64,000 nucleotides of DNA from Nitrospirota bacterium (GTDB lineage Bacteria; Nitrospirota; Nitrospiria; JACQBZ01). Below are positions 8,450 through 21,283 of the stretch, piece after piece. The position numbers and the translations under genes are program-made. Within the stretch, counting starts at the first letter, position 1. Every line of letters begins with the position of its first letter. The stretch is taken from positions 1,994 through 65,993 of the forward strand of contig JACQBZ010000020.1 of NCBI GenBank assembly GCA_016194285.1, in the 5' to 3' direction. The notes beneath the pieces are model-generated. The model saw only the letters and a program-made list of their open reading frames with translations. It did not search any database and was not told the origin of the DNA.

Positions 8450-10081
8450 TTACGATTTCTCACGGATAAGTTCCAAGAACAGTTCGACCAGATGAGGATC
8501 AAACTGAGTCCCGGCATTTTTCTTAAGTTCCCTTAAGGCATACTCCTTGCCGGGGGCTTTTCGATACACCCGGTCGAAGGTCATCGCATCATAAGCGTCC
8601 ACAAGGGCTACCACCCGCGCGCCCAAGGGTGTTTCTTCGCCCCGTAGCCCGTTTGGATATCCCTTTCCATCCCATCGTTCATGATCTCCCCGGACCAACG
8701 GGACAACCGGTTCCAGAAACTTGATGGGTTGGATGATCCGCGCCCCGAGGACCGGATGCTGTTTCATCACCTCATATTCTTCCGGAGTCAACTTGCCCGG
8801 CTTCTTTAAAATCGACTCCGGGATCCCGATCTTGCCGATGTCGTGGAGGATCGCCGCGTACTGAAGGACTTCCAGGTCGTTCTCCGAAAAGTCCAATCGT
8901 TTCCCGAGCATCAAGGCATGTTCCACCGTCCGATCGGAATGGCCCATGGTCTCCACGTCCTTGGTTTCCAGGGCCGAGGCCAGCGCCTTGATGGAGTCCA
9001 GGTTGGCCGTCTTTAATTGGTTTCCTTTGAATACAACCTCTTCAAACAGCCGGGCATTTTCAATGGCGCTGGCCATCTGACGAGCCACGGAATCGCACAA
9101 CCGGATTTTCTCGGGTGTGAAAGGATTCCGCTCCCAATGTCGAGCCTCGCCCAGAACCAACAGGCCCAGAAGGACACCTTTTTTTATCATGGGGCAGATT
9201 AAAAGAGACTGCAATTCCGCCAGATTTCCCGTAAAGAGCAGCCTCTCTACCGGCGAGCCGGCGGATTGGATCTCGACGCCGCGAAGCAGAAGGGGTTCTG
9301 AAGAAGTCAGGATTTCTTGGAAACATCTTGAATCGCCGGTCGCGCAGAAACGACCGATTTCAAAATCCCAATCGAGTTGTCTTTGAGGAAAAGCGGCCAT
9401 GACCATCAGGTGATGCTGTTGACGGTTGACCAAAAGAATCCGGCAGAAGGTGGCCTCCAGGCGTTGCGTGGCGATCTGTGCGGAGGTTTGAAGCAGCTCC
9501 TGAAGTTTTAGGGAGGAGGAAGTCGTCGTGGTGATCTCCAATAACAGGGACAGTTGATTGGTCCGCTGCTGGAGCTTTTCCAGATTCCGCTGTCGTTCCT
9601 CGCTGAGCTCCTTCAATTGCCGGATTCGCTCTTCCAAGTTTGCAACCAAGTTGACGCTGTGTTCTTTCAGGTAAACCTTTTCCTCTTCGGGACCCACACT
9701 TTCTTTTTGCCCTCCTAAAAAGGCTTCGACTTGAGACGCAAATGTTCGGATGTCGAGTGGCTTGGCAATGTAACCGTCGCAACCGGCCGTCAGGGTCCTC
9801 TCCCGGTCGCCCTTCATGACATTGGCGGTCAAGGCCACGATGGGAATTTTTTCCGTTCCCTTGGTGTTCTTGATTTTCGTGGCCGCGGCGTATCCGTCCA
9901 TATCCGGCAGGTTGATGTCCATCAGAATCAGGTCCGGGTGTTCGCTGCCGGCCACCTCGATTCCGGTCAGACCGTTCTCGGCCTCCAACACCTGATATCC
10001 CTTGGCCTCAAGGACCCTTCGGACCAAAAGGGTATTTTCCGGGTTGTCTTCCACGTAAAGGATCTTTCTTTTTGATTCCAT
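8450..10081 (-). CDS. Response regulator REC-GAF-HD-GYP (c-di-GMP phosphodiesterase)
   Basis: REC (ILYVEDN, LILMDINLP), coiled coil, GAF (LGLLVLG...QMASAIENARL), HDIGK, HERWDGKGYP, VDAYDAM. Confidence 0.9.
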   Translation of the reverse strand: MESKRKILYVEDNPENTLLVRRVLEAKGYQVLEAENGLTGIEVAGSEHPDLILMDINLPDMDGYAAATKIKNTKGTEKIPIVALTANVMKGDRERTLTAGCDGYIAKPLDIRTFASQVEAFLGGQKESVGPEEEKVYLKEHSVNLVANLEERIRQLKELSEERQRNLEKLQQRTNQLSLLLEITTTTSSSLKLQELLQTSAQIATQRLEATFCRILLVNRQQHHLMVMAAFPQRQLDWDFEIGRFCATGDSRCFQEILTSSEPLLLRGVEIQSAGSPVERLLFTGNLAELQSLLICPMIKKGVLLGLLVLGEARHWERNPFTPEKIRLCDSVARQMASAIENARLFEEVVFKGNQLKTANLDSIKALASALETKDVETMGHSDRTVEHALMLGKRLDFSENDLEVLQYAAILHDIGKIGIPESILKKPGKLTPEEYEVMKQHPVLGARIIQPIKFLEPVVPLVRGDHERWDGKGYPNGLRGEETPLGARVVALVDAYDAMTFDRVYRKAPGKEYALRELKKNAGTQFDPHLVELFLELIREKS

Positions 10082-10129
10082 CGAGTTCCTCCTTTCAGCT
10101 CTGCACGGCCCGTCTTGGGCCGTCGAGTT

Positions 10130-12649
10130 TTACGGCTGGACTCCCAATCGTTTGAGTACGTCCGTCACGTTCTTTATAAAATCCATCTCGGACGGGGCGG
10201 TTTTCCGAATCGAAGTGATCACTTTGCCGTTTAATCGCTCTCGATCTTCCAATGTCAAGTCCTTCCCGGTAATGATAACGACAGGAATATCACGGGTCGC
10301 CGGATCCGTGCGAAGCGCATCCAGAACATCGAACCCGTCCATTCCGGGCATCATCAGATCCAGAAAAACCATGTCCGGTCTTTCATTCCGAATCAAGGCT
10401 AGCCCGTCGGCCCCGTCCATGGCGGCGTGGATTCGATACGGTTGCCGATCCATGATTCTCCGCATGAGTTCAACCGATTTGGGATCGTCGTCGATCACGG
10501 CGACATGGCGAATCACACCCAACCGCTTTAGCACATCGAGCACGGCCTCTTGGCTGACCGGTTTAACCAGATAATCCACGGCCCCCAACGCATATCCCTT
10601 TCCGGTTTCGTCCAGGATGGAGCAGATGACAACCGGAATCTTCCTCGTCTGTTCATTTTCCTTAAGCGCGTTCAAAATCTCCCATCCGCTTTTCGGTTTC
10701 ATCAAAATATCCAGAACAATCACGTGGGGGTTTAAACGGCCTATTTTCTCCACGACGTCATTCGTGGGGTCCACGCCCACAACCCGATAGGGCTGGGATT
10801 CCAGGTAGCGCCGAATCAACGAGACGACATGGGGATCATCATCGATAACGGCCAAGATCGGTCCCTCTCGCTTTTCGAGTTCGCTCTCCGAGGGATCGTG
10901 GCGCAATGGCGGGGTCACCGGGGTCTCCACCGCTTGGGAGGTCTTTGCGCTCGTTAACTCAAATGGAAGATTAAACGAGAACGTGGAGCCGACGCCGTAC
11001 TGACTCTCGACCCAGATCCGGCCGCCGTGGAGTTCGATGAACCGCTTGACGATCACAAGACCCAGACCGGTCCCCCCATAATTGCGCGTGGTGGAAGCGT
11101 CCAGCTGCCGGAACTCTTTGAAAAGCTTCGGCAGGTCTTCCGGACGAATCCCGAGCCCGGTGTCGGTCACACTGACACAAATCGCTTCCGGTTTCTTGAC
11201 GGCTTTGATCCGGATCGAACCTTTTGCGGTAAACTTAATCGCATTGCTAATCAGATTCAGCATCACTTGCCGCAGGCGCATCCGGTCGGCTCGAATCGCG
11301 GAAAGGCCTTCTTCGATTTCGGTTCGGAACTCGATGGCCTTGCCCTTGATCAGTCCCTTGGCCGAAGACAGCACGCTCTGGACAATCTCCTCCAGTCGGA
11401 CTTCCTCCAGGCTCAGCGTCATATGACCGGCTTCGATCTTGGCCACATCCAGAATGTCATTGATCATCTCCAAAAGGTGCTTCCCGCTCTGGTAGACGGC
11501 CGTCAGGTCCTTTTGTTGCACTTCCGTGATCGGACCGTCGATCCCCTCCAGCAGGACTTGGGCGAAACCGATGATGGCATTCAGCGGCGTGCGCAGCTCA
11601 TGACTCATATTGGCCAGGAACTGGGTCTTTAGACGATCCGATTCCTGGGCCTTCTCCATCAGGGCCTGGAGTTCGACGTTCTTCGTCGCCAATTCCTCCG
11701 TCCGCTCCCGAACCTTCATTTCCAATTGATCCTTATAAACCTCCAGTTCCTTTGTGGTCTGGCGAAGGTCCTCATGCGTCAATTCAAGGTCCTGAAACTG
11801 CCGCTGAAGCTGGGCATCGCGTTCACGCAGGGAATCCGTCATCCGGTTAAAGATCCGGGCCAATTGGCCCAGTTCATCTTGAGACACCACATCAACCGAT
11901 TTGGTGAGATCGCCTTGAGAGACCAGGATCGCCGTATTGATCATCCCCTGAACCGGCCTTAGAATCGCGCGGACGAAGCCACTCGAGCCGATTATTCCTA
12001 AGGCGATCACCCCGGAGGTCAAGAGGATATAAAATCGAACGAGGTCCCTGACCTTGGTTCGAATCGGAGTATCGGAAATTCCCATTTCCACATATCCGAT
12101 CAGCACGGGCCGATCCTCGCCGGGTTGGAGGTTGAACATGGTCATCAAGGTTTCGTCGATTCCCGCATTAACAGTCTTGCGCAGGATAATCGGAGCCAGC
12201 ATGATATAGGGATATTCGTCACGACGTCCGGGATCCGACACTTGCTTAACCAAAATCTCCGTTCTGGCTTCATTAAACTCATGGGGTTGAATCGGACTCC
12301 GTTTGGAGTGATACGCTTCACCCTCTCGGTATTGCTCGGCCAGAACCGTATGCTTTTCATTATAGATCCGGATGTATTGTAGAGCGGTCGGCTTCGGCTC
12401 AGAGTCGAGCGTCCCTTGAAGGATGTTTTTCAGGTTTGCGGAATCCTCCGCGATCACTCCAAACCTGCTGGTGGAAGCCAACGCCAGCGTCAGGCTCTTC
12501 CCTTTCATCAGGAGTTCGTTCTCCACCTCCCGGCGCATGTTGTAGAGGGCATACCAACCAAGGGACAGTCCCACGATGACGATCATCAGACTGATCATCA
12601 AGGTGAACTTCATCTTCAAACTGATCGTCTTGCGTCCAAGACCCGTCAT
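10130..12649 (-). CDS. Membrane hybrid sensor histidine kinase (2 TM, HAMP, HisKA, HATPase, 2 REC)
   Basis: NMSHELRTPLNAII, NLISNAIKFT, DTGLGI, GGTGLGL, two receiver domains with conserved Asp. Confidence 0.93.
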   Translation of the reverse strand: MTGLGRKTISLKMKFTLMISLMIVIVGLSLGWYALYNMRREVENELLMKGKSLTLALASTSRFGVIAEDSANLKNILQGTLDSEPKPTALQYIRIYNEKHTVLAEQYREGEAYHSKRSPIQPHEFNEARTEILVKQVSDPGRRDEYPYIMLAPIILRKTVNAGIDETLMTMFNLQPGEDRPVLIGYVEMGISDTPIRTKVRDLVRFYILLTSGVIALGIIGSSGFVRAILRPVQGMINTAILVSQGDLTKSVDVVSQDELGQLARIFNRMTDSLRERDAQLQRQFQDLELTHEDLRQTTKELEVYKDQLEMKVRERTEELATKNVELQALMEKAQESDRLKTQFLANMSHELRTPLNAIIGFAQVLLEGIDGPITEVQQKDLTAVYQSGKHLLEMINDILDVAKIEAGHMTLSLEEVRLEEIVQSVLSSAKGLIKGKAIEFRTEIEEGLSAIRADRMRLRQVMLNLISNAIKFTAKGSIRIKAVKKPEAICVSVTDTGLGIRPEDLPKLFKEFRQLDASTTRNYGGTGLGLVIVKRFIELHGGRIWVESQYGVGSTFSFNLPFELTSAKTSQAVETPVTPPLRHDPSESELEKREGPILAVIDDDPHVVSLIRRYLESQPYRVVGVDPTNDVVEKIGRLNPHVIVLDILMKPKSGWEILNALKENEQTRKIPVVICSILDETGKGYALGAVDYLVKPVSQEAVLDVLKRLGVIRHVAVIDDDPKSVELMRRIMDRQPYRIHAAMDGADGLALIRNERPDMVFLDLMMPGMDGFDVLDALRTDPATRDIPVVIITGKDLTLEDRERLNGKVITSIRKTAPSEMDFIKNVTDVLKRLGVQP

Positions 12650-13581
12650 CGAAAAACCTCATCGGCCGTCTTGAGGACTTCCTCCGGAATGTCCAATCCG
12701 AGGATTTTAGCCGTCTTCAGATTGATCGTCAGACGCGCCGTCTCAGGGTAGATCACTTTCCCCTGATCCGGGATCCCGCTTCGAATGACCTGGTCTACCA
12801 GAACCGAGGATTGTTTGCCGATCGAAACATAATCGGGGGAAAGCGCCAGAAGCGCACCGGCCTTCACAAAGCTGTCCGAAAACGCCATAAAGGGGATGCC
12901 CTTTTCCAAGGTCGTCAGCAGGATGAACTGAAATGAATCGTTGGTGATCACGGTGCTGTCCGGCACCATCCACAAGCCTTGAATCTGGGGCAAGAGCGAT
13001 CGGATCGCGCCCGGAATCTCCTGGGCCGTTCGGACCTCGGCCTCGACCAACTCCAAGTTCAAGTGACGCGCTTCCTCTCGGGCTGAACGGATCAACCCGG
13101 ATGTTTTGGTCGGATCGTAAAGAACCCCAATCCTTTTTAACGCGGGCACGACCGATTTAAAGGCCTTGAACTGGGACTGGATCGGAATTTCCAGGTCGAT
13201 CCCGGTGACATTTCCGGATTGAAGACCATATCTATTGGGGTCAATCACAAGACAGTAGACCAGCGGGATATCCGGAAAACTTTCCCTGGCCAATCCGGCG
13301 GCCTTGGATCCGACCGCCAGCACGGCGGCCAGCTTGCGCCGCTTCGCCTGCCCGACGATCTTCATCCCTTCATTGACGTCCCCCTGCATGTTGTACTCCA
13401 CCACGTCCACTTTGGTATGACGCCGGAACCCTTCGACGGCTTGGTCATAGGGAAGCAGGTCCTGGCTCTTGATCACGGCGACCTCGGCCGACGATGCGAC
13501 GACCGGTTGCAGGACGAAGGGCACTGCCCAAAAAACGAGCCATAAAAAGGCCCGGCTAAAAATAGCAGATAACCTTGACAT
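12646..13581 (-). CDS. Periplasmic ABC substrate-binding-like protein (ABC_sub_bind type)
   Basis: N-terminal signal, KRIGVLYDP, LWMVPDSTV, VKAGALLALSPDY..IGKQ, INLKTAKILGLDIP; ATG 13581 preferred over track start inside the TonB gene. Confidence 0.8.
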   Translation of the reverse strand: MSRLSAIFSRAFLWLVFWAVPFVLQPVVASSAEVAVIKSQDLLPYDQAVEGFRRHTKVDVVEYNMQGDVNEGMKIVGQAKRRKLAAVLAVGSKAAGLARESFPDIPLVYCLVIDPNRYGLQSGNVTGIDLEIPIQSQFKAFKSVVPALKRIGVLYDPTKTSGLIRSAREEARHLNLELVEAEVRTAQEIPGAIRSLLPQIQGLWMVPDSTVITNDSFQFILLTTLEKGIPFMAFSDSFVKAGALLALSPDYVSIGKQSSVLVDQVIRSGIPDQGKVIYPETARLTINLKTAKILGLDIPEEVLKTADEVFR

Positions 13582-15553
13582 TGAAATTCCTTCGGTCTTG
13601 AGGGACTTGGAGGATCGGTGCAAGCTCATTGGAGGCCGGATCCGAGAATCGTGCATCAAAGAGGTTGAAGATGGAAGACCGGATCTCGAGATTTTTGTAC
13701 AGATTATGGAAGGTGAGGGTGAGATTCGTAACAAAGTAGGGATCGACCCTCCCATTCGATTGGATCATCTTTCGACTCCCGACGTATTGTTCTTCAATCC
13801 CCACGGATCCTCCCTCAATCGAGAGAGGAAACAGTTGTCCGGCTTTCGCCAGATGTCTCGGGGAATTGCTGAGCTCTTCATGGGTATCGCGATCCTTGGT
13901 GACCTGATACGCGTAGCTGAAATAACTTTCAATTCCCTGCGCCCACTTCGATCGAACCTCGGTCGAGACCCCTTGACCCCGCACTCGATCCAGGTTCTGA
14001 AATTCGAATGTTCCTCCTCCCCCATTCGTCAGATTGATCAGGTCCTTGATATCGTAACGATACACGGACAGGATGCCTTTCAGATGCGCCCCCAATGCCT
14101 GCTCAATCGCCCCTTCGTACGTGTTGATCGTTTCAGACTTCAGGTTTGGGTTGCAGACAAAAGAGATCCCGCAATAGAGCAATTCATAACTGTTCGGTAC
14201 ACGAAAAGCCTGGCCGTAAAGGAGTTTGAGGATGCTGCCCTCCACGGGCTCGTAAACCAGTGACGCTCGGGGGGATGTGTGCTTATTATCTTGGGCATTG
14301 TAGCGCACATAAACGTCATGTCGCGCGCCGACGTTCAGGGTGAGGTTGTTCATCAACTGGATTTCGTCCTGAAGGTAAAGCGAGTAGACCTGGAAACGAT
14401 CGCGGGTATCAAGATAAGAAAAGAACGGATCCACATTGAAGTTTTTTAACAGAACGTGATGGAATTGTCCCTCGGTCCCGGCCACCAGCCGACTCCATGA
14501 AAAGATTTTCCAGTCCATTTGAAGTTCAGTGCCATACCATCGGCCGGGGGTGTTGTCCTTGTTGATCGTCGGCGGAGGAACGTCGATGGGATAGGAGGCC
14601 TTGTAGAGATACCAGTCATCGTAGGCTCGGATCAACAGCCCCAGCGTCGGCGTCAGTTGGGGATTATATTTGACCTCGAGGAAGTATCTCCCATCGACGG
14701 TTCTTTCCCGACCGTCATCAAAGATCGTGGCGTAAGAAGCCGTGGGGACATTCTTGCCTCGCTCGAAGTAAGTTCCTTGAAACCCAAAGTCCTTGTACCG
14801 AAGTTTTCCAAAAAGGGAATAGGCCCACTCCCCATCCGAATTTTTCGCAAAGCCGGAATCGTGGGCGGGATCTCCATCATTGTATTCGGGGAAGTAAAGG
14901 GTTTGACCGCTGCTCCGGGTGGTGGAGGCATTCAACAACAGGTTAAGTCCATTCTCATACTGCTGGCCGTAGGTCAGGATCCCTTTGTTGGTGTTGTAAC
15001 TCCCCGCCTCGGCCGAAGCCATCAGGCCTTTCAAATCGCTTCCCTCTTTGGTGACGATATTGACGACGGCAAAGAAAGCGCTGGTCCCATAGAGGGCCGA
15101 ACCGGGGCCGCGAACAATCTCAATGCGATCCACAACGTCCAGATCAATACCGGATTCCCGCCCCAGGAGAAAGGCTTCGTAAATGTCATCATTGAGAACG
15201 TGTCCGTTGAGCATGCCAAGAATCCGGATGTTAAAATCCCCCGGTCTTGAAAACCCACGAACACCCAGATAACTGTAGTTTCTGTCATTGGAGACATAAA
15301 AATCGCGCACGGATCGGAACATATCCGCAAGGGTTCGCCAGCCGTACTGTTGGATCTCTCGGGCCGTAATGATCGTGACGGAAGCCGGTGCCTCGCCGAC
15401 CACCTGTTTATACCGCGCCGCCGAGACCACCACCTCACCTTCCTGCTCCGCATTAAAGAGGGCGATTTCTTGTTCCAGGGGCCCCGCACCGGCCAGGGCC
15501 ATTCCTCTGAATACAACGCAAATAAAGCCCAGGGTCATCCAATAACGCCTCAT
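13556..15553 (-). CDS. TonB-dependent outer-membrane receptor
   Basis: Plug motifs APASVTIITAREI, RGFS, RIEIVRGPGSALYG; beta-barrel; C-terminal Phe. Confidence 0.92.
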   Translation of the reverse strand: MRRYWMTLGFICVVFRGMALAGAGPLEQEIALFNAEQEGEVVVSAARYKQVVGEAPASVTIITAREIQQYGWRTLADMFRSVRDFYVSNDRNYSYLGVRGFSRPGDFNIRILGMLNGHVLNDDIYEAFLLGRESGIDLDVVDRIEIVRGPGSALYGTSAFFAVVNIVTKEGSDLKGLMASAEAGSYNTNKGILTYGQQYENGLNLLLNASTTRSSGQTLYFPEYNDGDPAHDSGFAKNSDGEWAYSLFGKLRYKDFGFQGTYFERGKNVPTASYATIFDDGRERTVDGRYFLEVKYNPQLTPTLGLLIRAYDDWYLYKASYPIDVPPPTINKDNTPGRWYGTELQMDWKIFSWSRLVAGTEGQFHHVLLKNFNVDPFFSYLDTRDRFQVYSLYLQDEIQLMNNLTLNVGARHDVYVRYNAQDNKHTSPRASLVYEPVEGSILKLLYGQAFRVPNSYELLYCGISFVCNPNLKSETINTYEGAIEQALGAHLKGILSVYRYDIKDLINLTNGGGGTFEFQNLDRVRGQGVSTEVRSKWAQGIESYFSYAYQVTKDRDTHEELSNSPRHLAKAGQLFPLSIEGGSVGIEEQYVGSRKMIQSNGRVDPYFVTNLTLTFHNLYKNLEIRSSIFNLFDARFSDPASNELAPILQVPQDRRNFNVKVICYF

Positions 15554-17007
15554 GCCGAATCACCCTCTTTATTCAATACCTGCACGAAGGACCGTACCAA
15601 TTGCGGGTCGAACTGCTTGCCGGCGCATTGATTCAATTCCTCGATGGCTTCGTCATCGGTCAGTCGTCTCCGATACGGCCGTGTCGAAATCATCGCATGA
15701 TAGGCCTCGGCAATGGCCAGAACGCGTGCAAGAAAGGGGATGTCCTCCCCATGCAGACCTTTCGGATAACCGTTTCCATCCCAACGCTCGTGATGGTAAA
15801 GAATGGCGGGCAGCACGCCGTCTAACCGGGGCGCGTCCTTGAGCAACATCTCGGCCAGGGTCGGATGGGCCTGGATGATCTTGCGCTCTTCCATCGTCAA
15901 GGGTCCCGGCTTGTTCAAAACATTATCGGGTGCATTCATCAGACCGATATTGTGCAGCAAACTTGCAATCCGAAGGCTCTCCACCTCCGGCGGGTCGAGT
16001 TTCAAGAACTTGGCAAAATTCATGGCCAAACGAACCACCTGATCCGTATGGCCGAAGGTGAAGGGCGTCTTTGCATCGATGGCCAATCCGATATTCCGGA
16101 TCACGCTGAGTTTCGAATCTCGAAGAACGGCCTCAAGACTGCCCTGATTCTTTACAAGATGGGCCTTCAACAATTCCCCGTGAAGACTGACTCGATTTCG
16201 GCCGTTCTGCTTGGCAAAATAAAGGGCCTTATCCGCCATTTCAATCAGGCCGTCTTTGTCTCGGGCATCGATGGGAAGATTCGCAATCCCGACGCTGATC
16301 GAAATAAAAGCCCGATGACCGCCGGGCAGGTTGAAGAGATGGTAGAGAACACTGTTGCGAAGACGCTCCGCAACGACCTGGGCCCCTTCCAACGATGTTT
16401 CAGGAAGAATGATCGAAAATTCTTCGCCTCCATAACGAGCGGGAAGATCGATGGTCCGAAGTCCTTTTTTGAGAAGCTCGCTCACCTCCCGTAGAATCGC
16501 ATCGCCGACCGGATGGCCATAGGCATCGTTCAAGGTTTTAAAATGATCCAGGTCGATCATGAGAAGCGAAAGCGACCGGTTGTACCGTCGAGAACGGGTA
16601 ACCTCATCCTCCAATTGTTTTTGAAAGGCCCGATGGTTGTAAATCCCTGTGACGACATCCGTCACCGCGGCCGCTTGCGCCGTTTCTAAAGCCTGGGCCC
16701 GTTGGGCCAGGAGTCTCTTGGCATTGAGACCGAAGGTGGCGCTGATGAGCAACAAGATCGCAGCCGCCGTCGTGATCGTAAATATTTCCTGGCCAACTTC
16801 CGAGACCAGATAACCCGGCGTTCCATGGAAAACCAGATCGACCAAATTGGATATGGAACCGAAGGCACCGGCCAGAATGAAGAACAGCGCGCCGAGACGC
16901 TCCAGATCAAGCCGCGCTTCACGTTTAAGAAAGTAACCGAAATAAACAAGGGCGCCGCCCGATACTGCGAGCACCCCGTGTTCGATCCAGCGGAGTCCCT
17001 CAAACAT
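15550..17007 (-). CDS. Membrane diguanylate cyclase (GGEEF) fused to degenerate HD-GYP domain
   Basis: 3 TM segments, DVVTGIYN, IDLDHFKTLND, RTID-x5-GGEEF; HD-GYP with HNIG and AEAYHAM; ATG 17007 directly after the upstream gene. Confidence 0.88.
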   Translation of the reverse strand: MFEGLRWIEHGVLAVSGGALVYFGYFLKREARLDLERLGALFFILAGAFGSISNLVDLVFHGTPGYLVSEVGQEIFTITTAAAILLLISATFGLNAKRLLAQRAQALETAQAAAVTDVVTGIYNHRAFQKQLEDEVTRSRRYNRSLSLLMIDLDHFKTLNDAYGHPVGDAILREVSELLKKGLRTIDLPARYGGEEFSIILPETSLEGAQVVAERLRNSVLYHLFNLPGGHRAFISISVGIANLPIDARDKDGLIEMADKALYFAKQNGRNRVSLHGELLKAHLVKNQGSLEAVLRDSKLSVIRNIGLAIDAKTPFTFGHTDQVVRLAMNFAKFLKLDPPEVESLRIASLLHNIGLMNAPDNVLNKPGPLTMEERKIIQAHPTLAEMLLKDAPRLDGVLPAILYHHERWDGNGYPKGLHGEDIPFLARVLAIAEAYHAMISTRPYRRRLTDDEAIEELNQCAGKQFDPQLVRSFVQVLNKEGDSA

Positions 17008-17009
17008 TG

Positions 17010-17312
17010 TCAGCCTGTTTTTTCCGATTCGGCTTCGGGCCGGATATCGCGATAGAGTTTCCATACGATCCATGGAAACAAGATTCCAGCGCCGATCCCG
17101 AGCAGTGCGCGAACCGCCTGGATCCAGGCCGGTTCCATAAATTTGAGGACGGTTCGAACGGCCAACATCACGCAAAGACCGATCAACAACAACCAGTTCC
17201 GCTTATCGCCGACGATGTCTTGTCCAACGGGAAGAATCACAAGAGCGACCATCAACACGACGATCGTCAACGCCGTCACGTTTATCACACCGATGACGCT
17301 TTCCAGCCCCAT
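17010..17312 (-). CDS. Small membrane protein (about 3 TM), unknown function
   Basis: Three hydrophobic stretches; fits between operon neighbours with 2-9 bp gaps. Confidence 0.7.
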   Translation of the reverse strand: MGLESVIGVINVTALTIVVLMVALVILPVGQDIVGDKRNWLLLIGLCVMLAVRTVLKFMEPAWIQAVRALLGIGAGILFPWIVWKLYRDIRPEAESEKTG

Positions 17313-17321
17313 CGATCCTCC

Positions 17322-18065
17322 TCAAACCGCAGTGCCTATTGCGGTTCTCGCTCGCTCGACTAACTTTGTCCCATCTTCTTCCGACGGTTCGATCGTTGCG
17401 TGCCCCACGTGGATTCGAATCGAATACCGAACGTCACCGATCATCCATTCCCGTTCGGGAAACAGAATGGGGATACGTTGTGCGACAAGCTTCGCGCCGT
17501 CCTCCGTCGTCTGGCACAGCAGCCATAAAAATTCTTGGGGGTCGATTTGAGAAATGGTATCGTATGCACGCCGGTACGCGTTCAAGGTATTTAAGATCTT
17601 CTGAGTAATTTCGCGCACCGCATCCCCTTTGTCCAAAGGTGAAATCTCGACCTTGACGGCAAGGCACGATAATGCATATTGGAATCGACGCGACCGGATC
17701 CGTTCCTCCTCCACTCGTTTCCGGAAATCCTCTAAACCTTTCAGGATCGCGGTTGATGGATCACGATGGGGTACGGGCGGCAGGCCGATCAAATTCAATA
17801 AAGCATGGGCTGAAATTTCCTCTCCTTCCGCCATCGCCGCTTTAATTTTTTCCGCGGCCTTGCTCACCAGATAGCCTTGCTCCGTCAGCTTCTGAACGGC
17901 CTGCAACAATTCAAGATCCCGATCCGTGTAGCGATAGAATATCCTTGAGCCGTGCAGTTCCTGTCCAGGCCGCACAATCCCGATCAGTTTCCAATAACCC
18001 AGTTGTCTGGCCGAAATCTTGGCCCGTCTACAGATTTCTTTGGGGCTGTATGTCTTTTTACCCAT
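17322..18065 (-). CDS. MerR-family HTH fused to degenerate GGDEF-like domain
   Basis: N-term TYSPKEICRRAKISARQLGYW...YRYTDRDL; C-term RAYD-TISQI-DPQEF-LWLL...GAKLVAQRI...LVERA. Confidence 0.75.
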   Translation of the reverse strand: MGKKTYSPKEICRRAKISARQLGYWKLIGIVRPGQELHGSRIFYRYTDRDLELLQAVQKLTEQGYLVSKAAEKIKAAMAEGEEISAHALLNLIGLPPVPHRDPSTAILKGLEDFRKRVEEERIRSRRFQYALSCLAVKVEISPLDKGDAVREITQKILNTLNAYRRAYDTISQIDPQEFLWLLCQTTEDGAKLVAQRIPILFPEREWMIGDVRYSIRIHVGHATIEPSEEDGTKLVERARTAIGTAV

Positions 18066-18283
18066 CTCTCCACGCCCGATCCGAAAAGGTTGTCAACTTT
18101 TAACATATATAGAGCAATAAGCGTACCAACTGATAGTAAAATAAGGACTATTTCTTATACATGCTTGTTCAATGTAATAAATCAACAGGTTACAATAATG
18201 CGCTTTTGGGGGTTTGGAAGCGGATCCTTTGAATTAGGAAATCTCTTTCCTATTCTTTGACGAAATTTGGCAGGATGGAAGGA

Positions 18284-18892
18284 TTAGTCTTTCAGGAGTT
18301 GGACGATCTTTTCCAGAAGGGCATCTCGACCCTCACCGGTCTTGGAAGAAAATGGCAGGATGATGGGGGGAGTAGCCGACCCCGGCAATGAACCTTTGAT
18401 CTTGCCGAGCGCCGATGCCAGCCGTCCTCGGGGCAGCTGATCCGACTTTGTGGCGACCAGAATACACGGAAGCGTGTAGGAGCGAATCCATGTTAACAAT
18501 TGTTGATCCAAAAGACTCGGCGGGTGACGAATATCCATCAGCACGATCAAGCCACGAAGCGCGGGACGGTGCGTGAGATAATCATTCACCAAGTCACCCC
18601 AGGCCTCCCGTTGTGCGAATGATGCGCTGGCATAGCCGTATCCGGGCAGGTCCACAAGATAAAAAGCCAACGGCCATTTGAGGCCGACGGTGACCTTGAA
18701 AAAGTTAATCAGTCGTGTTTTGCCCGGCGTGCCGCTTGTTTTGGCCAGCCCTTTTTGTTGCACCAGACAATTCAACAGCGATGACTTCCCCACGTTGGAA
18801 CGTCCCGCAAGAGCAATCTCGAGCAGTCCGTCCTTTGGACAGTCTTCCGACCTGGCACAGCTCTTGATAAATTCGGCGCTGAGAATCTTCAT
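18284..18892 (-). CDS. engB: Ribosome biogenesis GTPase YihA/YsxC
   Basis: GRSNVGKSS, GKTRLINFF, VDLPGYGY, TKSD. Confidence 0.95.
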   Translation of the reverse strand: MKILSAEFIKSCARSEDCPKDGLLEIALAGRSNVGKSSLLNCLVQQKGLAKTSGTPGKTRLINFFKVTVGLKWPLAFYLVDLPGYGYASASFAQREAWGDLVNDYLTHRPALRGLIVLMDIRHPPSLLDQQLLTWIRSYTLPCILVATKSDQLPRGRLASALGKIKGSLPGSATPPIILPFSSKTGEGRDALLEKIVQLLKD

Positions 18893-18994
18893 AGGGTATG
18901 AACTTACCAGTTCAAAGGAAGACGATCAAGAAGAATTATTCCTGTTTTCCAATCCACTCAGCGCAGGGGATACAAACATGGGGAGATCAATCCT

Positions 18995-19020
18995 CGCCCG
19001 TCCCGAAGGACGGGCGCTAC
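18995..19020 (-). repeat. GTAG REP-like hairpin with UUCG loop
   Basis: Minus strand GTAG-CGCCCGTCC-TTCG-GGACGGGCG; sits exactly where Cas3 stub 1 ends. Confidence 0.6.
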
Positions 19021-19060
19021 TTCCCTGGCTGTTTTTAGAATGGGCGGAATATTCGGCCAT
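19021..19060 (-). pseudogene. Cas3 HD-domain 5' stub 1 (MAEYSAHSKNSQG)
   Basis: Imperfect direct repeat of 19935-19973; YxAHS-x-NSxG start typical of Cas3 HD N-termini. Confidence 0.5.
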
Positions 19061-19096
19061 GTAGCTGCAAAGCAAGATTATCCCCTTTCATTCCCC

Positions 19097-19128
19097 ATAA
19101 TACCAACTCCGCGTGACAGGGCAGGTCA
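19097..19128 (-). promoter_or_regulatory. Putative WYL-regulated promoter: TGAC-N7-GTCA, 11 nt, TATTAT
   Basis: Palindrome 19114-19128, -10 at 19097-19102 with TGn extension; same spacing as 20044-20075. Confidence 0.55.
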
Positions 19129-19146
19129 AAAGATCAAAAAATGAAT

Positions 19147-19175
19147 TTGACAGAATTCTGTACATTATTTATAAT
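19147..19175 (+). promoter_or_regulatory. Sigma70 promoter of TA module 1 with operator palindrome
   Basis: TTGACA-17-TATAAT; ACAGAATTCTGT palindrome at 19150-19161. Confidence 0.8.
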
Positions 19176-19206
19176 CTCTGTTATCAAATTACCAAGGAGG
19201 TTCCCA

Positions 19207-19488
19207 ATGTCCATCTCTCCCAAAGACATCATCCCGCTGACCAAGGCCCGGGCAAAGCTCACGGAGTTGTGCGAGCAGGTCCGCCGGGAGCACGGCGAGA
19301 AGATCATCACCAAGAACGGCGAGTCCTGCGCCGCATTGATCGACGCCGACCGGCTGGACCACTACCACCGCTTGGAGCGGGAGCACGTCCATCTCACGCT
19401 TCTTGAGGAAGCGATCCGCGGAATGGAAGATGTCGCTGCCGGGAAAACCCTTTCCCTGAAAGAGTTAAAAACCCGCCATGGCCGGTAG
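19207..19488 (+). CDS. Phd/YefM-family antitoxin
   Basis: IIPLTKARAKLTEL...IITKNGESCAALI; AAGGAGG RBS before ATG 19207. Confidence 0.88.
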   Translation: MSISPKDIIPLTKARAKLTELCEQVRREHGEKIITKNGESCAALIDADRLDHYHRLEREHVHLTLLEEAIRGMEDVAAGKTLSLKELKTRHGR

Positions 19489-19849
19489 ACGGCGAACACC
19501 TGTCTTTACCGAGAATTTCAGCCTCAACCTTGATGCCCTCCGGCTCTTTCTGGAACCGGAGGGACGCGCCGCATTCGAACGCCTCCTCGACCGCCTGTTC
19601 GATGACATCGTGCCGATGCTTTGCCGACACTCTCAGTCCGGCCGGATCTTTCTCCAGCATCCGATCCGATCGAAAGAAGCCCGATCTCTATCGCGAAAGC
19701 TGAAAACCTTTCTGAAAAAAGGCGACACGCTTCGCGAGTTTGTCGTGGATGACTATCTTATGCTGTATTTGCACAGAGACCGTCAGGTGGTTTTTCTGTC
19801 CATCAAACACCACCGTCAGCTCTCCTTTGACCTGCGACGATTCTGGTAG
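19478..19849 (+). CDS. RelE/ParE-family toxin
   Basis: Overlaps antitoxin; VFTENF..NL, LREF..DDYLMLY...VVFLSIKH. Confidence 0.75.
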   Translation: MAGRRRTPVFTENFSLNLDALRLFLEPEGRAAFERLLDRLFDDIVPMLCRHSQSGRIFLQHPIRSKEARSLSRKLKTFLKKGDTLREFVVDDYLMLYLHRDRQVVFLSIKHHRQLSFDLRRFW

Positions 19850-19973
19850 TCCCGCTCGCCCGCCCCGAACTTAGCGGCAAATTCCCCCACCCGCCGGGCG
19901 ACGCTCGTTAGATGCTCGACCCGGTCGTGCTTGATCCTTGGCTGTTTTCAGAATGGGCGAAATAGTCGTTCAT
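19850..19973 (-). pseudogene. Cas3 HD-domain 5' stub 2, frameshifted
   Basis: MNDYFAHSENSQG / 1-nt shift / KHDRVEHLTSVARRVGEFAAKFGAGE; stops before the HD motif, at the stop of toxin 1. Confidence 0.65.
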
Positions 19974-20043
19974 GTCACAGTGATAATGCGGGCGACGCTG
20001 AAGTCGCGGTCAACGCAAGGCATATCCACTCCTTTCCACGGAA

Positions 20044-20075
20044 ATCTTACAATACCCTCGTGACAACGGGGGTCA
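20044..20075 (-). promoter_or_regulatory. Putative WYL-regulated promoter: TGAC-N7-GTCA, 11 nt, TAAGAT
   Basis: Palindrome 20061-20075, -10 at 20044-20049; upstream of Cas3 stub 2. Confidence 0.55.
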
Positions 20076-20099
20076 AAGTTTTTTCTCCCATCCGCTCGC

Positions 20100-20151
20100 T
20101 TGACAGCAGCTTAAGAAGCCATTATAATGGCCATTATCATAGCCATAATGG
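20100..20151 (+). promoter_or_regulatory. Sigma70 promoter of TA module 2 with operator palindromes
   Basis: TTGACA(20100)-17-TATAAT(20123); CCATTATAATGG 20119-20130 and CCATTAT-N7-ATAATGG 20131-20151. Confidence 0.8.
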
Positions 20152-20161
20152 AGACAATCTT

Positions 20162-20461
20162 ATGAAACAGGTAGACCAATTTGTATCGGTTACAGATGCC
20201 AAGAACCGCCTTCTGGATCTCATCCGAAGCCTTGCCGAGAAAGATGAGGTGCTGGCAATCACGCGCGGCGGCATCCCCGCCGCCGTCGTCCTCAGCCCCG
20301 AGCGGTACGAGGGTCTTTTGGAGACCATTGAAGTCCTCAGCGACCCCCGCTCGATGGAGTCCATTCGCCGATCGCTCAAGCAGGCCCGGAAGGGCCGCTG
20401 GCTGAGCGAGGAAGAGGTCTTCGGAAAAGAGAAGGCCCGCCTGTCCGGCCGGCAGGCATGA
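20162..20461 (+). CDS. Phd/YefM-family antitoxin
   Basis: VSVTDAKNRLLDLI...ITRGGIPAAVVLS...LLETIEVLSD; ATG 20162 downstream of promoter. Confidence 0.9.
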   Translation: MKQVDQFVSVTDAKNRLLDLIRSLAEKDEVLAITRGGIPAAVVLSPERYEGLLETIEVLSDPRSMESIRRSLKQARKGRWLSEEEVFGKEKARLSGRQA

Positions 20462-20751
20462 AGGCCTTTCGCGTCCGGTACACGCCCGAAGCGGCCTCCC
20501 TCATCCGAAAACTCCATCCCGAAATCAAGCGCCGAATCCGGGGCGGAATCAAAACGCTTCTCGAAAATCCGTTGTCGGGCCATGAGCTCCGTTTTGAGCT
20601 GTCCGGTTTTCGATCCCACCGTGTGAAGAACTATCGCATCATCTACCGACTCAATGATCCCGAGGGTTTTCTCGAAATCCTTTTCGTCGGTCAACGGCGG
20701 GACGTTTATGAAAGCCTCCGAGCCCTGTTGTTGGAAAAATCCTCCGACTGA
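20458..20751 (+). CDS. RelE/StbE-family toxin
   Basis: 4-bp overlap with antitoxin; LLENPLSGHEL...FRSHRVKNYRIIY...ILFVGQRRDVY. Confidence 0.88.
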   Translation: MKAFRVRYTPEAASLIRKLHPEIKRRIRGGIKTLLENPLSGHELRFELSGFRSHRVKNYRIIYRLNDPEGFLEILFVGQRRDVYESLRALLLEKSSD

Positions 20752-20789
20752 CTTCGCCGTCTCCGCGTTGAGCGGGAAGACCTTGCCTT

Positions 20790-21283
20790 GATCCCCTGAT
20801 ATTTCCCCAACAGTCTCTAGGCCTCGTTCTGGACCGCCTGCATCAAACTTTCCGGACGAACCACCCGGACCTTTGCGCCAAAGCCCAACACCCATGCGAG
20901 CAGTTCAGGGCAAACGGCCACCTGAAGATTCATCCGGATCCGCCCGCCTTTGAGCGGCGTGATCCGCTGGCTCGCATGCCAGGTTCGCTCACGCACCCAC
21001 CGGGCGGCCGACTTTTCAAAGACCAGCTCCACGCCCTCTGCTTCCCCCCGGAACACGTCAGGACTGAGCGCGGAGCGGCTCTTCTGGAATAAGCTGTGAA
21101 GAGAATCACCCAGGAAGGTGCCATCGAGCGGTAGTCCGGGTCAAGAACCCAAAAGGTTTTCCCGTCTTCACGCTGATCATAGATCGGAAAACCAGCGAGG
21201 CCCAATGCATCCAGGTCCCGCCGCAGTGTCCGCTGATGGCAGGCATCGTCCAGCTCGGAGGCTAAACGTTGGGTTGACAGCCC
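20790..21283 (-). pseudogene. HTH-WYL-WCX transcriptional regulator remnant
   Basis: HTH GLSTQRLASELDDACHQRTLRRDLDALGLAGFPI; frameshifted linker GTFLGDSLHSLFQKSRSALSP; WCX VELVF...WHASQ...ELLAWVLGFGAKVRVVRPESL; premature TAG then RLLGKY; no start codon, WYL core missing. Confidence 0.75.

What the first reader, a model, noticed from the sequence alone, without database searches (positions are those of the whole stretch)
17322..18065. MerR-type DNA-binding domain fused to a catalytically dead GGDEF with an intact I-site: candidate c-di-GMP-sensing transcription factor
Seen: an N-terminal MerR HTH, and a C-terminal RAYD-TISQI-DPQEF-LWLL. This is an RxxD exactly 5 residues before a degenerate GG(D/E)EF position, with downstream DGC-like elements (GAKLVAQRI, IHVG.A, LVERA). 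Established: degenerate GGDEF domains that retain RxxD act as c-di-GMP receptors (PelD, PopA). I do not recognise a characterised MerR-GGDEF effector. It is the first gene of a c-di-GMP operon, which suggests feedback autoregulation.
Basis: partly seen in the sequence, partly recalled or inferred. Interest (0 to 1): 0.75.

Follow-up and report, generated by a model that had tools for sequence, protein, structure and literature searches.

The report
MerR regulator with dead-cyclase c-di-GMP sensor
This gene encodes a small DNA-binding regulator whose tail is a dead copy of the enzyme that makes the bacterial signal c-di-GMP but keeps that enzyme's c-di-GMP-binding pocket, so it is a credible, untested new design of c-di-GMP-responsive gene switch found only in uncultured Nitrospiria.

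Summary
Window 17322-18065 (-) encodes a 247-aa protein with a MerR-type winged HTH (aa 6-75), a variable and probably disordered linker, and a C-terminal GGDEF fold (aa ~103-247). The fold is supported by the Pfam HMM, a family profile against PDB, and an AlphaFold2 model searched with Foldseek.

The cyclase site is destroyed. GGEEF is replaced by DPQEF, the metal-binding Asp is lost, and the substrate loop has a 6-residue deletion.

The inhibitory (I-) site is kept. R166-x-x-D169 lies exactly 5 residues before the motif. R197 and R127 (which aligns with WspR R198, the Arg supplied in trans) are also kept. These are among the very few invariant positions across 36 relatives whose C-terminal domains fall to 25% identity. 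In one clade (Ca. Manganitrophus and allies) they are all lost together.

Best reading (about 0.6): a one-component c-di-GMP-sensing transcription factor in which c-di-GMP cross-links two dead GGDEF domains and so controls DNA binding.

- The downstream c-di-GMP operon is lineage-specific. Some orthologous loci lack it.
- The gene has a conserved sigma-54 promoter, not a classical MerR promoter, plus a genome-unique palindrome upstream.

I found no characterised MerR-GGDEF effector in the literature. This is a new variant of known kinds.

The parts
17322..18065 (-). CDS of the MerR-dGGDEF regulator (247 aa plus stop)
   Evidence: ORF list and sequence. 29 homologue clusters at 40-100% identity share the same start.
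17841..18050 (-). MerR-type winged helix-turn-helix, aa 6-75. Invariant residues: R20 Q21 L22 Y24 W25 I28 G29 P33.
   Evidence: Pfam MerR_1 E=1.8e-10. The AF2 model shows helix-helix-wing-helix-helix with pLDDT 79-91. Invariant columns.
17760..17840 (-). Variable linker, aa 76-102. No conserved MerR alpha-5 coiled coil.
   Evidence: pLDDT is 42-56. The K75-to-F114 segment is 11-41 residues long across the family, with mean column conservation 0.49.
17325..17759 (-). Degenerate GGDEF domain, aa 103-247: long N-terminal 'stalk' helix 103-128, then the GGDEF alpha/beta core.
17559..17570 (-). Primary I-site motif R166-A-Y-D169 (RxxD), 5 residues before the A-site position.
   Evidence: Aligns to RTID of the neighbouring DGC and to R242-S-S-D245 of WspR. 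R166 is kept in 36/36 and D169 in 35/36 branch-A sequences.
17529..17543 (-). Degenerate A-site D175-P-Q-E-F179 in place of GG(D/E)EF.
   Evidence: Positions 175-177 vary freely across the family.
17685..17696 (-). R124-S-R-R127 on the stalk helix. R127 aligns with WspR R198, the Arg that completes the I-site from a neighbouring GGDEF domain.
   Evidence: HMM alignment to WspR, with numbering checked against PMC2270323. R124 and R127 are kept in 36/36 branch-A sequences.
17475..17477 (-). R197, 18 residues after F179. Aligns with the Arg of 'AER' in canonical cyclases. By my recollection of PleD numbering this is R390.
   Evidence: Kept in 35/36 branch-A sequences and replaced by E or Q in branch B.
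18113..18128 (-). Sigma-54-type -24/-12 promoter TGGTAC-N5-TTGCT. Its 3' end lies 47 nt upstream of the ATG.
   Evidence: GG-N10-GC with at least 9 of 11 consensus matches lies 46-88 nt upstream of the ATG in 13 of 16 orthologous loci of both branches. rpoN and about 12 enhancer-binding proteins are present in the genome.
18158..18176 (-). Conserved dyad TACATT-GAACAAG-CATGTA (TACATK-N7-CATGTA). Candidate operator, or an upstream activating sequence for an enhancer-binding protein.
   Evidence: Conserved in window, L001, L004, L005 and L008. It is the only exact match in the genome. With one mismatch allowed, the only matches in G000, G032 and G038 are this site, and two extra matches occur in G001.
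18235..18252 (-). Hairpin TAGGAAA-GAG-ATTTCCTA after the engB stop. Possible engB terminator or boundary element.
   Evidence: The stem is kept with different loops in the orthologous loci. There is no T-run, and no terminator was called.
17010..17312 (-). Small membrane protein (100 aa), 9 nt after the regulator's stop. Unknown family.
   Evidence: The same gene is present in L001 and L008.
15550..17007 (-). Membrane diguanylate cyclase with intact RTID...GGEEF, fused to an HD-GYP domain in which HD reads HN. The start at 17007 is inferred from orthologue lengths; the open frame runs up to 17175.
   Evidence: GGDEF E=6.7e-46 and HD_5 E=1.7e-45. Sequence. Orthologues are 483-485 aa.
8450..15553 (-). 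Rest of the co-directional block: TonB-dependent receptor (13556-15553), ABC_sub_bind protein (12646-~13581), HAMP hybrid histidine kinase (10130-12649), and REC-GAF-HD-GYP (8450-10081).
   Evidence: Pfam. Same order in L001, L005 and L008.
18284..18892 (-). engB/ysxC-type GTPase. The upstream neighbour in all 8 family-f1-type loci examined (the window and L001, L003-L008).
   Evidence: MMR_HSR1 E=2.3e-19. Synteny.

Best explanation
The gene encodes a one-component transcription factor that senses c-di-GMP.

**Shown**
- An N-terminal MerR-type winged HTH is tethered by a variable, probably flexible linker to a GGDEF-fold domain.
- That domain cannot make c-di-GMP. It has no GG(D/E) motif and no metal-binding Asp. 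It has a 6-residue deletion in the substrate loop, and it ends before the phosphate-binding Lys.
- The residues that form the product-inhibition (I-) site in real cyclases are retained under strong purifying selection. They are R166 and D169 (RxxD), R197, and R127 on the stalk helix. R127 is the counterpart of WspR R198, which caps the ligand from a second GGDEF domain.

**Inferred**
- An intercalated c-di-GMP dimer binds RxxD/R197 of one protomer and R127 of the other. This cross-links two dead GGDEF domains back to back, as in product-inhibited PleD and WspR.
- The protein has no conserved MerR coiled coil. This ligand-dependent pairing would therefore set the spacing of the two HTHs and switch binding to a dyad operator, in a BldD-like 'ligand as dimerisation glue' logic.

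**More weakly inferred**
- The operator is the genome-unique dyad TACATK-N7-CATGTA. Its centre lies about 40 bp upstream of the GG of the -24 element of the gene's own sigma-54 promoter.
- In this genome the output would then be autoregulation plus control of the co-transcribed seven-gene block. That block contains a cyclase and an HD-GYP phosphodiesterase, which would close a feedback loop on c-di-GMP.
For: **Fold and dead active site:**

**I-site register:** RAYD aligns to RTID and DPQEF to GGEEF in the neighbouring DGC. The alignment to WspR puts R166/D169 on R242/D245 and R127 on R198. The roles of those WspR residues come from PMC2270323.

**Selection:** among 36 branch-A sequences with C-terminal-domain identity down to 25%, only six C-terminal columns are invariant: E121, R124, R127, C134, R166 and L183. 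Y168, D169 and R197 are 35/36. The former active-site positions 175-177 vary freely.

**Correlated loss:** one clade with 100/98 support (Ca. Manganitrophus plus P0035 and P0036) keeps the fold and structural residues (C134, W181, L182). Its core of seven sequences (branch B) replaces R124, R166 (6 of 7), Y168 and R197 together, and R127 in 5 of 7. P0036 is intermediate: it keeps R124, R127 and Y168 but has R166->M, D169->E and R197->K. This is as expected if these residues form one functional site.

**The ligand is available:** 22 GGDEF matches in a 2.3-Mb genome.

**Flexible tether instead of a coiled coil:**

**Modular use of this HTH:** the same HTH subfamily is fused to PAS/GAF sensors in other proteins, so it serves as the output module of one-component systems.

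**Operator candidate and promoter:**

**Precedent:** degenerate GGDEF domains that retain RxxD are c-di-GMP receptors, for example PelD and PopA (PMC7288161; PMC12564702).
Against: - There is no biochemical evidence. Binding is inferred from residue conservation only.
- The Arg equivalents of R127 and R197 are common in GGDEF domains generally, so their presence alone is weak. The weight lies in their invariance and co-loss.
- Branch B keeps the domain without the I-site, so the domain must also have an I-site-independent role such as dimerisation or partner binding.
- The downstream c-di-GMP operon is absent in L004, L006 and L007 and partly absent in L005.
- The dyad occurs essentially only upstream of the gene itself. 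A regulator that controls only itself makes little sense in operon-less genomes.
- The dyad could instead be the binding site of the enhancer-binding protein that the sigma-54 promoter requires.
- The dyad is not visible in the Manganitrophus loci, although the recognition helix is conserved there.
- No multimer or ligand modelling was possible, so the cross-linking geometry is conjecture.
Confidence: 0.6

Rival explanations
1. The dead GGDEF domain is a ligand-independent dimerisation or partner-docking module. It pairs with itself, or with the GGDEF domain of a real cyclase such as the co-encoded DGC-HD-GYP protein. The regulator would then report the state of a partner enzyme rather than the c-di-GMP pool. 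This would be a fused version of the E. coli MlrA-DgcM-PdeR logic.
For: - Branch B retains the domain, its structural core (C134, W181, L182) and the sigma-54 promoter after losing the I-site residues.
- In E. coli a MerR-like factor (MlrA) is controlled by direct contact with a GGDEF protein and a trigger phosphodiesterase (PMC3715855, listed).
- A cyclase is co-encoded in some loci.
Against: - This does not explain why R124, R127, R166, D169 and R197 are the most conserved C-terminal residues across very long branches in branch A while the rest of the surface drifts.
- The putative partner gene is missing from L004-L007.
Confidence: 0.22
2. The retained pocket binds another guanine nucleotide (pGpG, 3'3'-cGAMP, GTP or (p)ppGpp) rather than c-di-GMP.
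For: - The conserved Tyr between R and D (RxYD, 35/36 sequences) and the invariant W181 and Q185 are not canonical I-site features. They could retune specificity.
- An HD-GYP enzyme encoded in the operon could in principle shape the local nucleotide pool (my inference, not tested).
Against: - RxxD plus the trans Arg is a well-established c-di-GMP dimer site (PMC2270323).
- SiaD, a normal cyclase, also reads REYD, so the Tyr is not exotic.
- The GTP-binding loop is deleted.
Confidence: 0.08
3. The C-terminal domain is an evolutionary relic with no sensing role, and the protein is simply a constitutive small MerR-like repressor.
For: - Many stand-alone 80-140-aa relatives of the N-terminal domain exist in the class.
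- The Pfam GGDEF score is marginal.
Against: - The domain is kept full-length, with conserved blocks at 0.75-0.76 mean column conservation, across sequences whose C-terminal domains share as little as 25% identity with this protein.
- The AF2 model is confident for the domain.
Confidence: 0.04

Closest known systems
PelD (P. aeruginosa) and PopA (Caulobacter): degenerate-GGDEF I-site c-di-GMP receptors
   Same: A GGDEF fold with a dead active site and a retained RxxD motif, which is the ligand-binding site (PMC7288161; PMC12564702). One distant family member (P0033) even gives a weak PelD_GGDEF Pfam hit at E=1.2e-4.
   Different: PelD is a membrane protein that regulates a polysaccharide synthase. 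PopA is a REC-REC-GGDEF adaptor for proteolysis. Neither has a DNA-binding domain. Here the output is a fused MerR-type HTH.
BrlR (P. aeruginosa): MerR-family transcription factor that binds c-di-GMP
   Same: A MerR-type N-terminal HTH in a regulator whose DNA binding responds to c-di-GMP. The BrlR structure appears among the Foldseek hits through the HTH (5xbt_A).
   Different: BrlR binds c-di-GMP at sites in its MerR DNA-binding domain. It has a coiled coil and a GyrI-like effector domain (PMC7288161). The present protein has no conserved coiled coil and carries a dead GGDEF domain instead.
BldD (Streptomyces): c-di-GMP-mediated dimerisation of a transcription factor
   Same: An HTH, then a flexible linker, then a C-terminal domain. 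In BldD the two C-terminal domains are held together by the nucleotide, which enables DNA binding (PMC4151990, listed; PMC7288161). This is the mechanism proposed here.
   Different: The BldD C-terminal domain is an unrelated fold. It uses RGD and RQDD motifs and a c-di-GMP tetramer. Here the site would be a recycled cyclase I-site binding a dimer.
WspR and PleD product inhibition (I-site cross-linking of GGDEF domains)
   Same: R166, D169 and R127 align with WspR R242, D245 and R198. In WspR, R198 from a neighbouring GGDEF domain completes the site. A long stalk helix precedes the domain, as in WspR; the top Foldseek hits include WspR and GCN4-WspR.
   Different: WspR and PleD are active enzymes with REC inputs, and cross-linking silences catalysis. 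Here there is no catalysis to silence, and the moving part would be an HTH.
MlrA-DgcM-PdeR module of E. coli
   Same: A MerR-like transcription factor functionally coupled to a GGDEF domain (PMC3715855, listed).
   Different: In E. coli these are separate proteins, and c-di-GMP is sensed by the EAL trigger enzyme PdeR. Here the two domains are in one polypeptide and the GGDEF domain is inactive.

Membership tests
MerR family transcription factors | N-terminal winged helix-turn-helix matching the MerR HMMs | tested here: met
   PF13411 MerR_1 E=1.8e-10 and 41.2 bits, above the 21.6 cut-off. The 'RQLGYWKLIGIVRP' recognition region is invariant.
MerR family transcription factors | Long alpha-5 helix forming the antiparallel coiled-coil dimer interface directly after the HTH | tested here: not met
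   Residues 76-102 have pLDDT 42-56 and only a short helix at 86-92. This segment is 11-41 residues long across the family and poorly conserved.
MerR family transcription factors | Dyad operator inside an over-long (19-20 bp) spacer of a sigma-70 promoter | tested here: not met
   The conserved promoter is of the sigma-54 -24/-12 type. No sigma-70 promoter was called in the intergenic region. TTGATT-N20-TATAAG can be read around the dyad in the window, but the -10 hexamer is not conserved in the orthologues.
Diguanylate cyclases (active GGDEF domains) | GGDEF-domain fold | tested here: met
Diguanylate cyclases (active GGDEF domains) | GG(D/E)EF active-site motif | tested here: not met
   The motif reads DPQEF, and positions 175-177 vary freely in the family.
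Diguanylate cyclases (active GGDEF domains) | Metal-binding Asp on beta-1 and an intact substrate (guanine/phosphate) loop | tested here: not met
   The aligned positions are K138/E140 against D..D in the neighbouring DGC. The 'NDxxGHxxGD' loop has a 6-residue deletion. The protein ends before the 'AK..GRN' segment.
Degenerate-GGDEF I-site c-di-GMP receptors (PelD/PopA type) | RxxD exactly five residues upstream of the (degenerate) GGDEF position | tested here: met
   R166-A-Y-D169 + TISQI + DPQEF. R is kept in 36/36 and D in 35/36 branch-A sequences.
Degenerate-GGDEF I-site c-di-GMP receptors (PelD/PopA type) | Additional Arg residues that complete the site (equivalents of PleD R390 and WspR R198) | tested here: met
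   R197 (35/36) and R127 (36/36) align to those positions. The PleD numbering is from my own recollection. The WspR numbering was checked.
Degenerate-GGDEF I-site c-di-GMP receptors (PelD/PopA type) | Demonstrated c-di-GMP binding that depends on RxxD | not testable with these tools
   Needs purified protein (DRaCALA, ITC or MST) and I-site mutants.
BrlR-type MerR c-di-GMP effectors | GyrI-like C-terminal effector domain and c-di-GMP sites within the MerR domain | tested here: not met
   The C-terminal domain is GGDEF, not GyrI-like. Whether the BrlR N-terminal binding residues are present was not examined.

The most novel reading that the evidence does not exclude
A cyclase's product-inhibition site has been recycled into a ligand-operated dimerisation clamp for a coiled-coil-less MerR HTH. 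An intercalated c-di-GMP dimer bridges RxxD/R197 of one dead GGDEF domain and R127 of the other. Only then are the two HTHs spaced to bind the TACATK-N7-CATGTA dyad next to the gene's own sigma-54 promoter. That would make it a BldD-like mechanism that arose independently from a GGDEF domain, acting at a sigma-54 rather than a sigma-70 promoter. The Ca. Manganitrophus clade would be a natural ligand-blind variant.
Probability: 0.3. Interest if true: 0.7.

Novelty: new variant of a known kind. Interest (0 to 1): 0.55.

Why it matters
c-di-GMP effectors are hard to predict from sequence, and transcription factors that read the signal use unrelated, idiosyncratic sites (FleQ, VpsT, BrlR, BldD, MrkH and others).

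A direct fusion of the best-understood c-di-GMP pocket, the GGDEF I-site, to a DNA-binding domain would be the simplest conceivable c-di-GMP gene switch. In my searches it has not been characterised.

If confirmed, it would have three uses:
- It gives a sequence-predictable class of c-di-GMP-responsive regulators.
- It gives a compact part for c-di-GMP biosensors.
- The Manganitrophus clade offers a natural experiment on how a ligand site is lost while the scaffold is kept.

It would also give a first handle on c-di-GMP regulation in an uncultured Nitrospiria lineage that carries 22 GGDEF genes in about 2.3 Mb.

The limits are a narrow distribution (about 16 of 251 sampled genomes of the class) and purely inferential function.

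Tried and rejected
- **Single-sequence search against PDB.** It gave only marginal hits (best GGDEF hit E=0.14). The profile search was needed.
- **Riboswitch or other RNA in the 218-nt leader/intergenic region.** No Rfam match in 16800-19200 apart from an unrelated CRISPR-repeat-like hit. The fold z-score was -0.47. Rejected.
- **Classical MerR promoter.** No sigma-70 promoter was called in the intergenic region. A TTGATT-N20-TATAAG reading exists in the window, but its -10 hexamer is not conserved. Rejected in favour of the conserved sigma-54 element.
- **Regulon by operator search.** The dyad is unique in G000. With one mismatch it is essentially unique in four genomes of the family. No regulon could be derived. 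A two-mismatch search would give about 90 chance hits by my estimate and was not pursued.
- **'Conserved c-di-GMP operon' as functional evidence.** Rejected as a general argument, because the operon is absent or partial in L004-L007.
- **My interim guess that the I-site-less clade was Nitrospira sensu stricto.** This was wrong. Source names identify it as Candidatus Manganitrophus, and it sits in a different genomic context, next to a recG-like gene (assigned by eye from its sequence; no Pfam scan) rather than engB.
- **Literature searches for a characterised MerR-GGDEF or HTH-GGDEF effector.** Nothing found.
- **Multimer or ligand-bound modelling and inspection of model coordinates.** Not possible with the tools available.
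Full report
**1. The observation**

Window 17322-18065 on the minus strand is an open frame of 247 codons. It starts at ATG and has a GGAG ribosome-binding site.

Pfam finds MerR_1 at aa 6-75 (E=1.8e-10, above the cut-off). It finds GGDEF at aa 154-243, aligned to profile positions 59-151 of 161. That match has E=5.9e-5 and 23.3 bits, a hair under the 23.8-bit gathering score. NCBIfam cyclase models hit the same stretch weakly.

The weak single-sequence signal becomes firm with a family profile. An alignment of 29 homologue clusters matches solved GGDEF domains over aa 111-247. The best is SiaD 7e6g at E=6.5e-10, followed by WspR, PleD, DosC, DgcZ and others. The same profile matches 27,383 representative proteins at E<=1e-3, and nearly all of the best 150 listed match through the C-terminal (GGDEF) part or the MerR head alone.

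An AlphaFold2 model has mean pLDDT 81.6. It shows a winged HTH, a low-confidence segment at 81-102, a long helix at 103-128 and an alpha/beta core. Foldseek places that core on GGDEF structures, for example DosC 4zvg_B at rmsd 2.3 A over 145 columns and target TM 0.71.

BLASTP against the canonical cyclase encoded two genes downstream aligns RAYD with RTID, DPQEF with GGEEF and AQR197I with AERL (E=4e-10).

**2. Dead as an enzyme**

In the alignment to the neighbouring cyclase:
- the beta-1 'DxD' metal site is K138/E140;
- six residues of the 'NDxxGHxxGD' substrate loop are deleted;
- GGE is replaced by DPQ;
- the protein ends before the 'AK..GRN' segment.

Across the family the former active-site positions 175-177 take almost any residue. 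Catalysis can be excluded with high confidence.

**3. The I-site is under selection**

I pooled three sets of sequences: the 29 close homologues, nine more distant full-length relatives from the exhaustive representative search, and six copies recovered from whole genomes. I tabulated key columns and column conservation.

In 'branch A' (36 sequences, C-terminal-domain identity to this protein down to 25%), only six C-terminal columns are invariant: E121, R124, R127, C134, R166 and L183. Y168, D169, W181 and R197 are kept in 35 of 36.

R166 and D169 are the RxxD pair. R197 lies 18 residues after the Phe of the motif, where canonical cyclases have the Arg of 'AER'. By my recollection of PleD numbering this is R390.

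R127 aligns with WspR R198. I checked this by counting in the HMM alignment against the published description. In WspR, c-di-GMP at the I-site is bound by R242 and by R198, and R198 is contributed by a neighbouring GGDEF domain. Both R242A and R198A mutants purify nucleotide-free (PMC2270323).

A second group, 'branch B', keeps the fold and its structural residues (C134, W181, L182, A239). It replaces R124 (to K, Q or E), R127 (to Q in 5 of 7), R166 (to K, Q or E in 6 of 7), Y168 (to S) and R197 (to E or Q) together. P0036 is intermediate. It keeps R124, R127 and Y168 but has R166->M, D169->E and R197->K.

On a maximum-likelihood tree the I-site-less sequences, with P0036 as their sister, form one clade with 100/98 support. 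That is a single change of state. The I-site persists elsewhere along terminal branches of more than one substitution per site. Source names identify branch B as Candidatus Manganitrophus.

This pattern is the strongest in-silico argument that these residues form one functional ligand site in branch A, to which the window's protein belongs. It combines invariance where the rest of the domain drifts with concerted loss in one clade.

**4. Not a textbook MerR**

The HTH is typical, with an invariant 'RQLGYWxLIGxxxP'. What follows is not the long coiled-coil helix of the family. The segment between K75 and F114 is 11-41 residues long in different members. It is poorly conserved (0.49, against 0.75-0.77 in the flanking blocks) and modelled with pLDDT 42-56.

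Close relatives of the same HTH occur alone as 80-140-aa proteins throughout the class. They also occur fused to PAS and GAF sensor domains. This HTH is therefore used as the output module of one-component regulators, with the variable C-terminal part as sensor.

**5. Surroundings**

In this genome the gene is followed, on the same strand and at very short distances, by six genes:
- after a 9-nt gap, a 100-aa membrane protein (17010-17312);
- a membrane cyclase with intact RTID...GGEEF, fused to an HD-GYP domain in which HD reads HN (15550-~17007);
- a TonB-dependent receptor (13556-15553);
- an ABC-type substrate-binding protein (12646-~13581);
- a HAMP hybrid histidine kinase (10130-12649);
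- a REC-GAF-HD-GYP protein (8450-10081).

It is not a conserved feature of the family. L005 lacks the membrane protein and the cyclase. L004, L006 and L007 have no signalling genes at all, and the regulator is directly followed by convergent TPR and SurA genes.

What is conserved in this lineage is the position. The gene lies 200-250 bp downstream of the engB/ysxC GTPase, within a syntenic region that includes the Pup-proteasome genes, thiD and the ABC ATPases.

In Ca. Manganitrophus the homologue sits elsewhere, next to a recG-like gene that I assigned by eye from its sequence.

In a sample of 251 genomes of the class, full-length copies occur in about 16. These comprise 7 of 8 genomes in the window's own family (one copy is cut by a contig end), eight genomes in the Manganitrophus family, and one other.

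**6. The upstream region**

Aligning the engB-to-regulator spacers shows three conserved elements.

(a) A hairpin right after engB (18235-18252). Its stem is kept with varying loops.

(b) A 19-bp dyad, TACATT-GAACAAG-CATGTA (18158-18176). It is perfect in L004 and L005 as TACATG-N7-CATGTA. It is the only exact match in the 2.3-Mb genome. With one mismatch allowed, the only matches in G000, G032 and G038 are this site, and two extra matches occur in G001. The dyad geometry (N7 spacer) resembles the operators of coiled-coil-less MerR relatives such as GlnR/TnrA and HspR. That comparison rests on my own knowledge and was not tested.

(c) A sigma-54-type promoter, TGGTAC-N5-TTGCT (18113-18128), whose 3' end lies 47 nt upstream of the ATG. 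GG-N10-GC elements with at least 9 of 11 consensus matches lie 46-88 nt upstream of the start in 13 of 16 loci. This includes the otherwise unalignable Manganitrophus loci, which read TGGCATTTCACTTGCA. The genome has rpoN and about a dozen enhancer-binding proteins. The strict pattern occurs 18 times in the genome, against about 7 expected from composition.

The dyad centre lies about 40 bp upstream of the GG of the -24 element. It may be the regulator's own operator, or the site of the required enhancer-binding protein. I cannot tell which.

No riboswitch or other Rfam family is present in the leader, and the region has no unusual RNA fold.

**7. Mechanism proposed**

*Shown.* The protein has an HTH, a flexible tether and a dead GGDEF domain whose I-site residues are intact and strongly selected. 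The organism has abundant c-di-GMP enzymes, with 22 GGDEF matches.

*Inferred.* The protein binds c-di-GMP at RxxD/R197. R127, on the stalk helix, completes the site from the second subunit. The ligand therefore cross-links two C-terminal domains, as in product-inhibited WspR and PleD. There is no conserved coiled coil, so this pairing would govern the spacing of the two HTHs and hence binding to a dyad. The logic is that of BldD, where c-di-GMP glues two C-terminal domains (PMC4151990; PMC7288161).

*More weakly inferred.* The target is the unique dyad at its own sigma-54 promoter. In this genome that would put the cyclase/HD-GYP operon under c-di-GMP feedback.

I put about 0.6 on c-di-GMP sensing through the I-site. 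I put about 0.3 on the full clamp-plus-autoregulation picture.

**8. Rivals**

The main rival (about 0.2) is that the dead domain is a ligand-independent dimerisation or partner-docking module. This would be a fused analogue of E. coli MlrA-DgcM-PdeR (PMC3715855). The I-site-less Manganitrophus clade shows that such a role must exist, but it does not explain the selection on the Arg/Asp set in branch A.

A different nucleotide ligand (about 0.08) and a relic domain (about 0.04) are less likely.

**9. Comparison with what is known, and novelty**

Three things are already known:
- degenerate GGDEF receptors that use RxxD (PelD, PopA);
- a MerR-family factor that binds c-di-GMP, BrlR, but at sites in its MerR domain and with a GyrI-like effector domain;
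- ligand-mediated dimerisation of a transcription factor, BldD.

A MerR-type HTH directly fused to an I-site-retaining dead GGDEF domain was not found in full-text searches or in two recent effector reviews. Those searches do not cover subscription journals.

Notes from this scan mention other HTH/dead-GGDEF fusions in unrelated genomes. They are unchecked leads, but they suggest that this design recurs.

I class the finding as a new variant of known kinds. Its interest is moderate because function is inferred and the distribution is narrow.

Noticed in passing
window 18113-18128 (-): A conserved sigma-54-type -24/-12 promoter (TGGTAC-N5-TTGCT) drives the regulator gene. Equivalent elements lie upstream of 13 of 16 orthologues, including Ca. 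Manganitrophus (TGGCATTTCACTTGCA). The responsible enhancer-binding protein is unknown, and none is encoded nearby.
   Followed up: partly
window 18158-18176: The 19-bp dyad TACATT-GAACAAG-CATGTA is the only exact match in the genome. With one mismatch allowed it is the only match in three of the four genomes of the family that hold it; the fourth, G001, has two further matches. The asymmetric centre GAACAAS is conserved as well, so the true motif may be longer than the palindrome.
   Followed up: partly
window 18235-18252 (-): Hairpin TAGGAAA-GAG-ATTTCCTA directly after the engB stop. The stem is maintained with different loops in orthologous loci, and no T-tract follows.
   Followed up: no
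window 18985-19020 (-): A lone CRISPR direct-repeat-like match (Rfam RF01322, 39.8 bits, below the gathering score of 45) lies just upstream of engB. Other notes of this scan describe decayed cas remnants at 19021-21283.
   Followed up: no
window 15550-17007 (-): The co-encoded membrane cyclase has intact RTID...GGEEF, but its HD-GYP domain reads 'LLHNIG' (HD to HN) while keeping HHERWDGNGYP. It is probably a cyclase with a non-catalytic HD-GYP domain.
   Followed up: no
L019-L024 (Ca. Manganitrophus genomes), around 1498-2270 of each locus: A sister clade of the family in Ca. Manganitrophus keeps the HTH, the GGDEF-like scaffold and the sigma-54 promoter. It has lost the I-site residues and sits next to a recG-like gene (assigned by eye from its sequence; no Pfam scan) rather than engB.
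   Followed up: partly
P0076, P0138, P0139, P0174 (representative library): The same MerR-type HTH subfamily is fused to PAS and GAF sensor arrays (411-701 aa). Many stand-alone 80-140-aa versions exist across the class Nitrospiria.
   Followed up: no
L004, L006, L007 versus window, L001, L005, L008: The signalling block of four to six genes (seven with the regulator in the window; four in L005) is present or absent as a unit between the regulator and the convergent TPR/SurA genes. This points to insertion or deletion of a whole signalling module at a fixed chromosomal site.
   Followed up: partly
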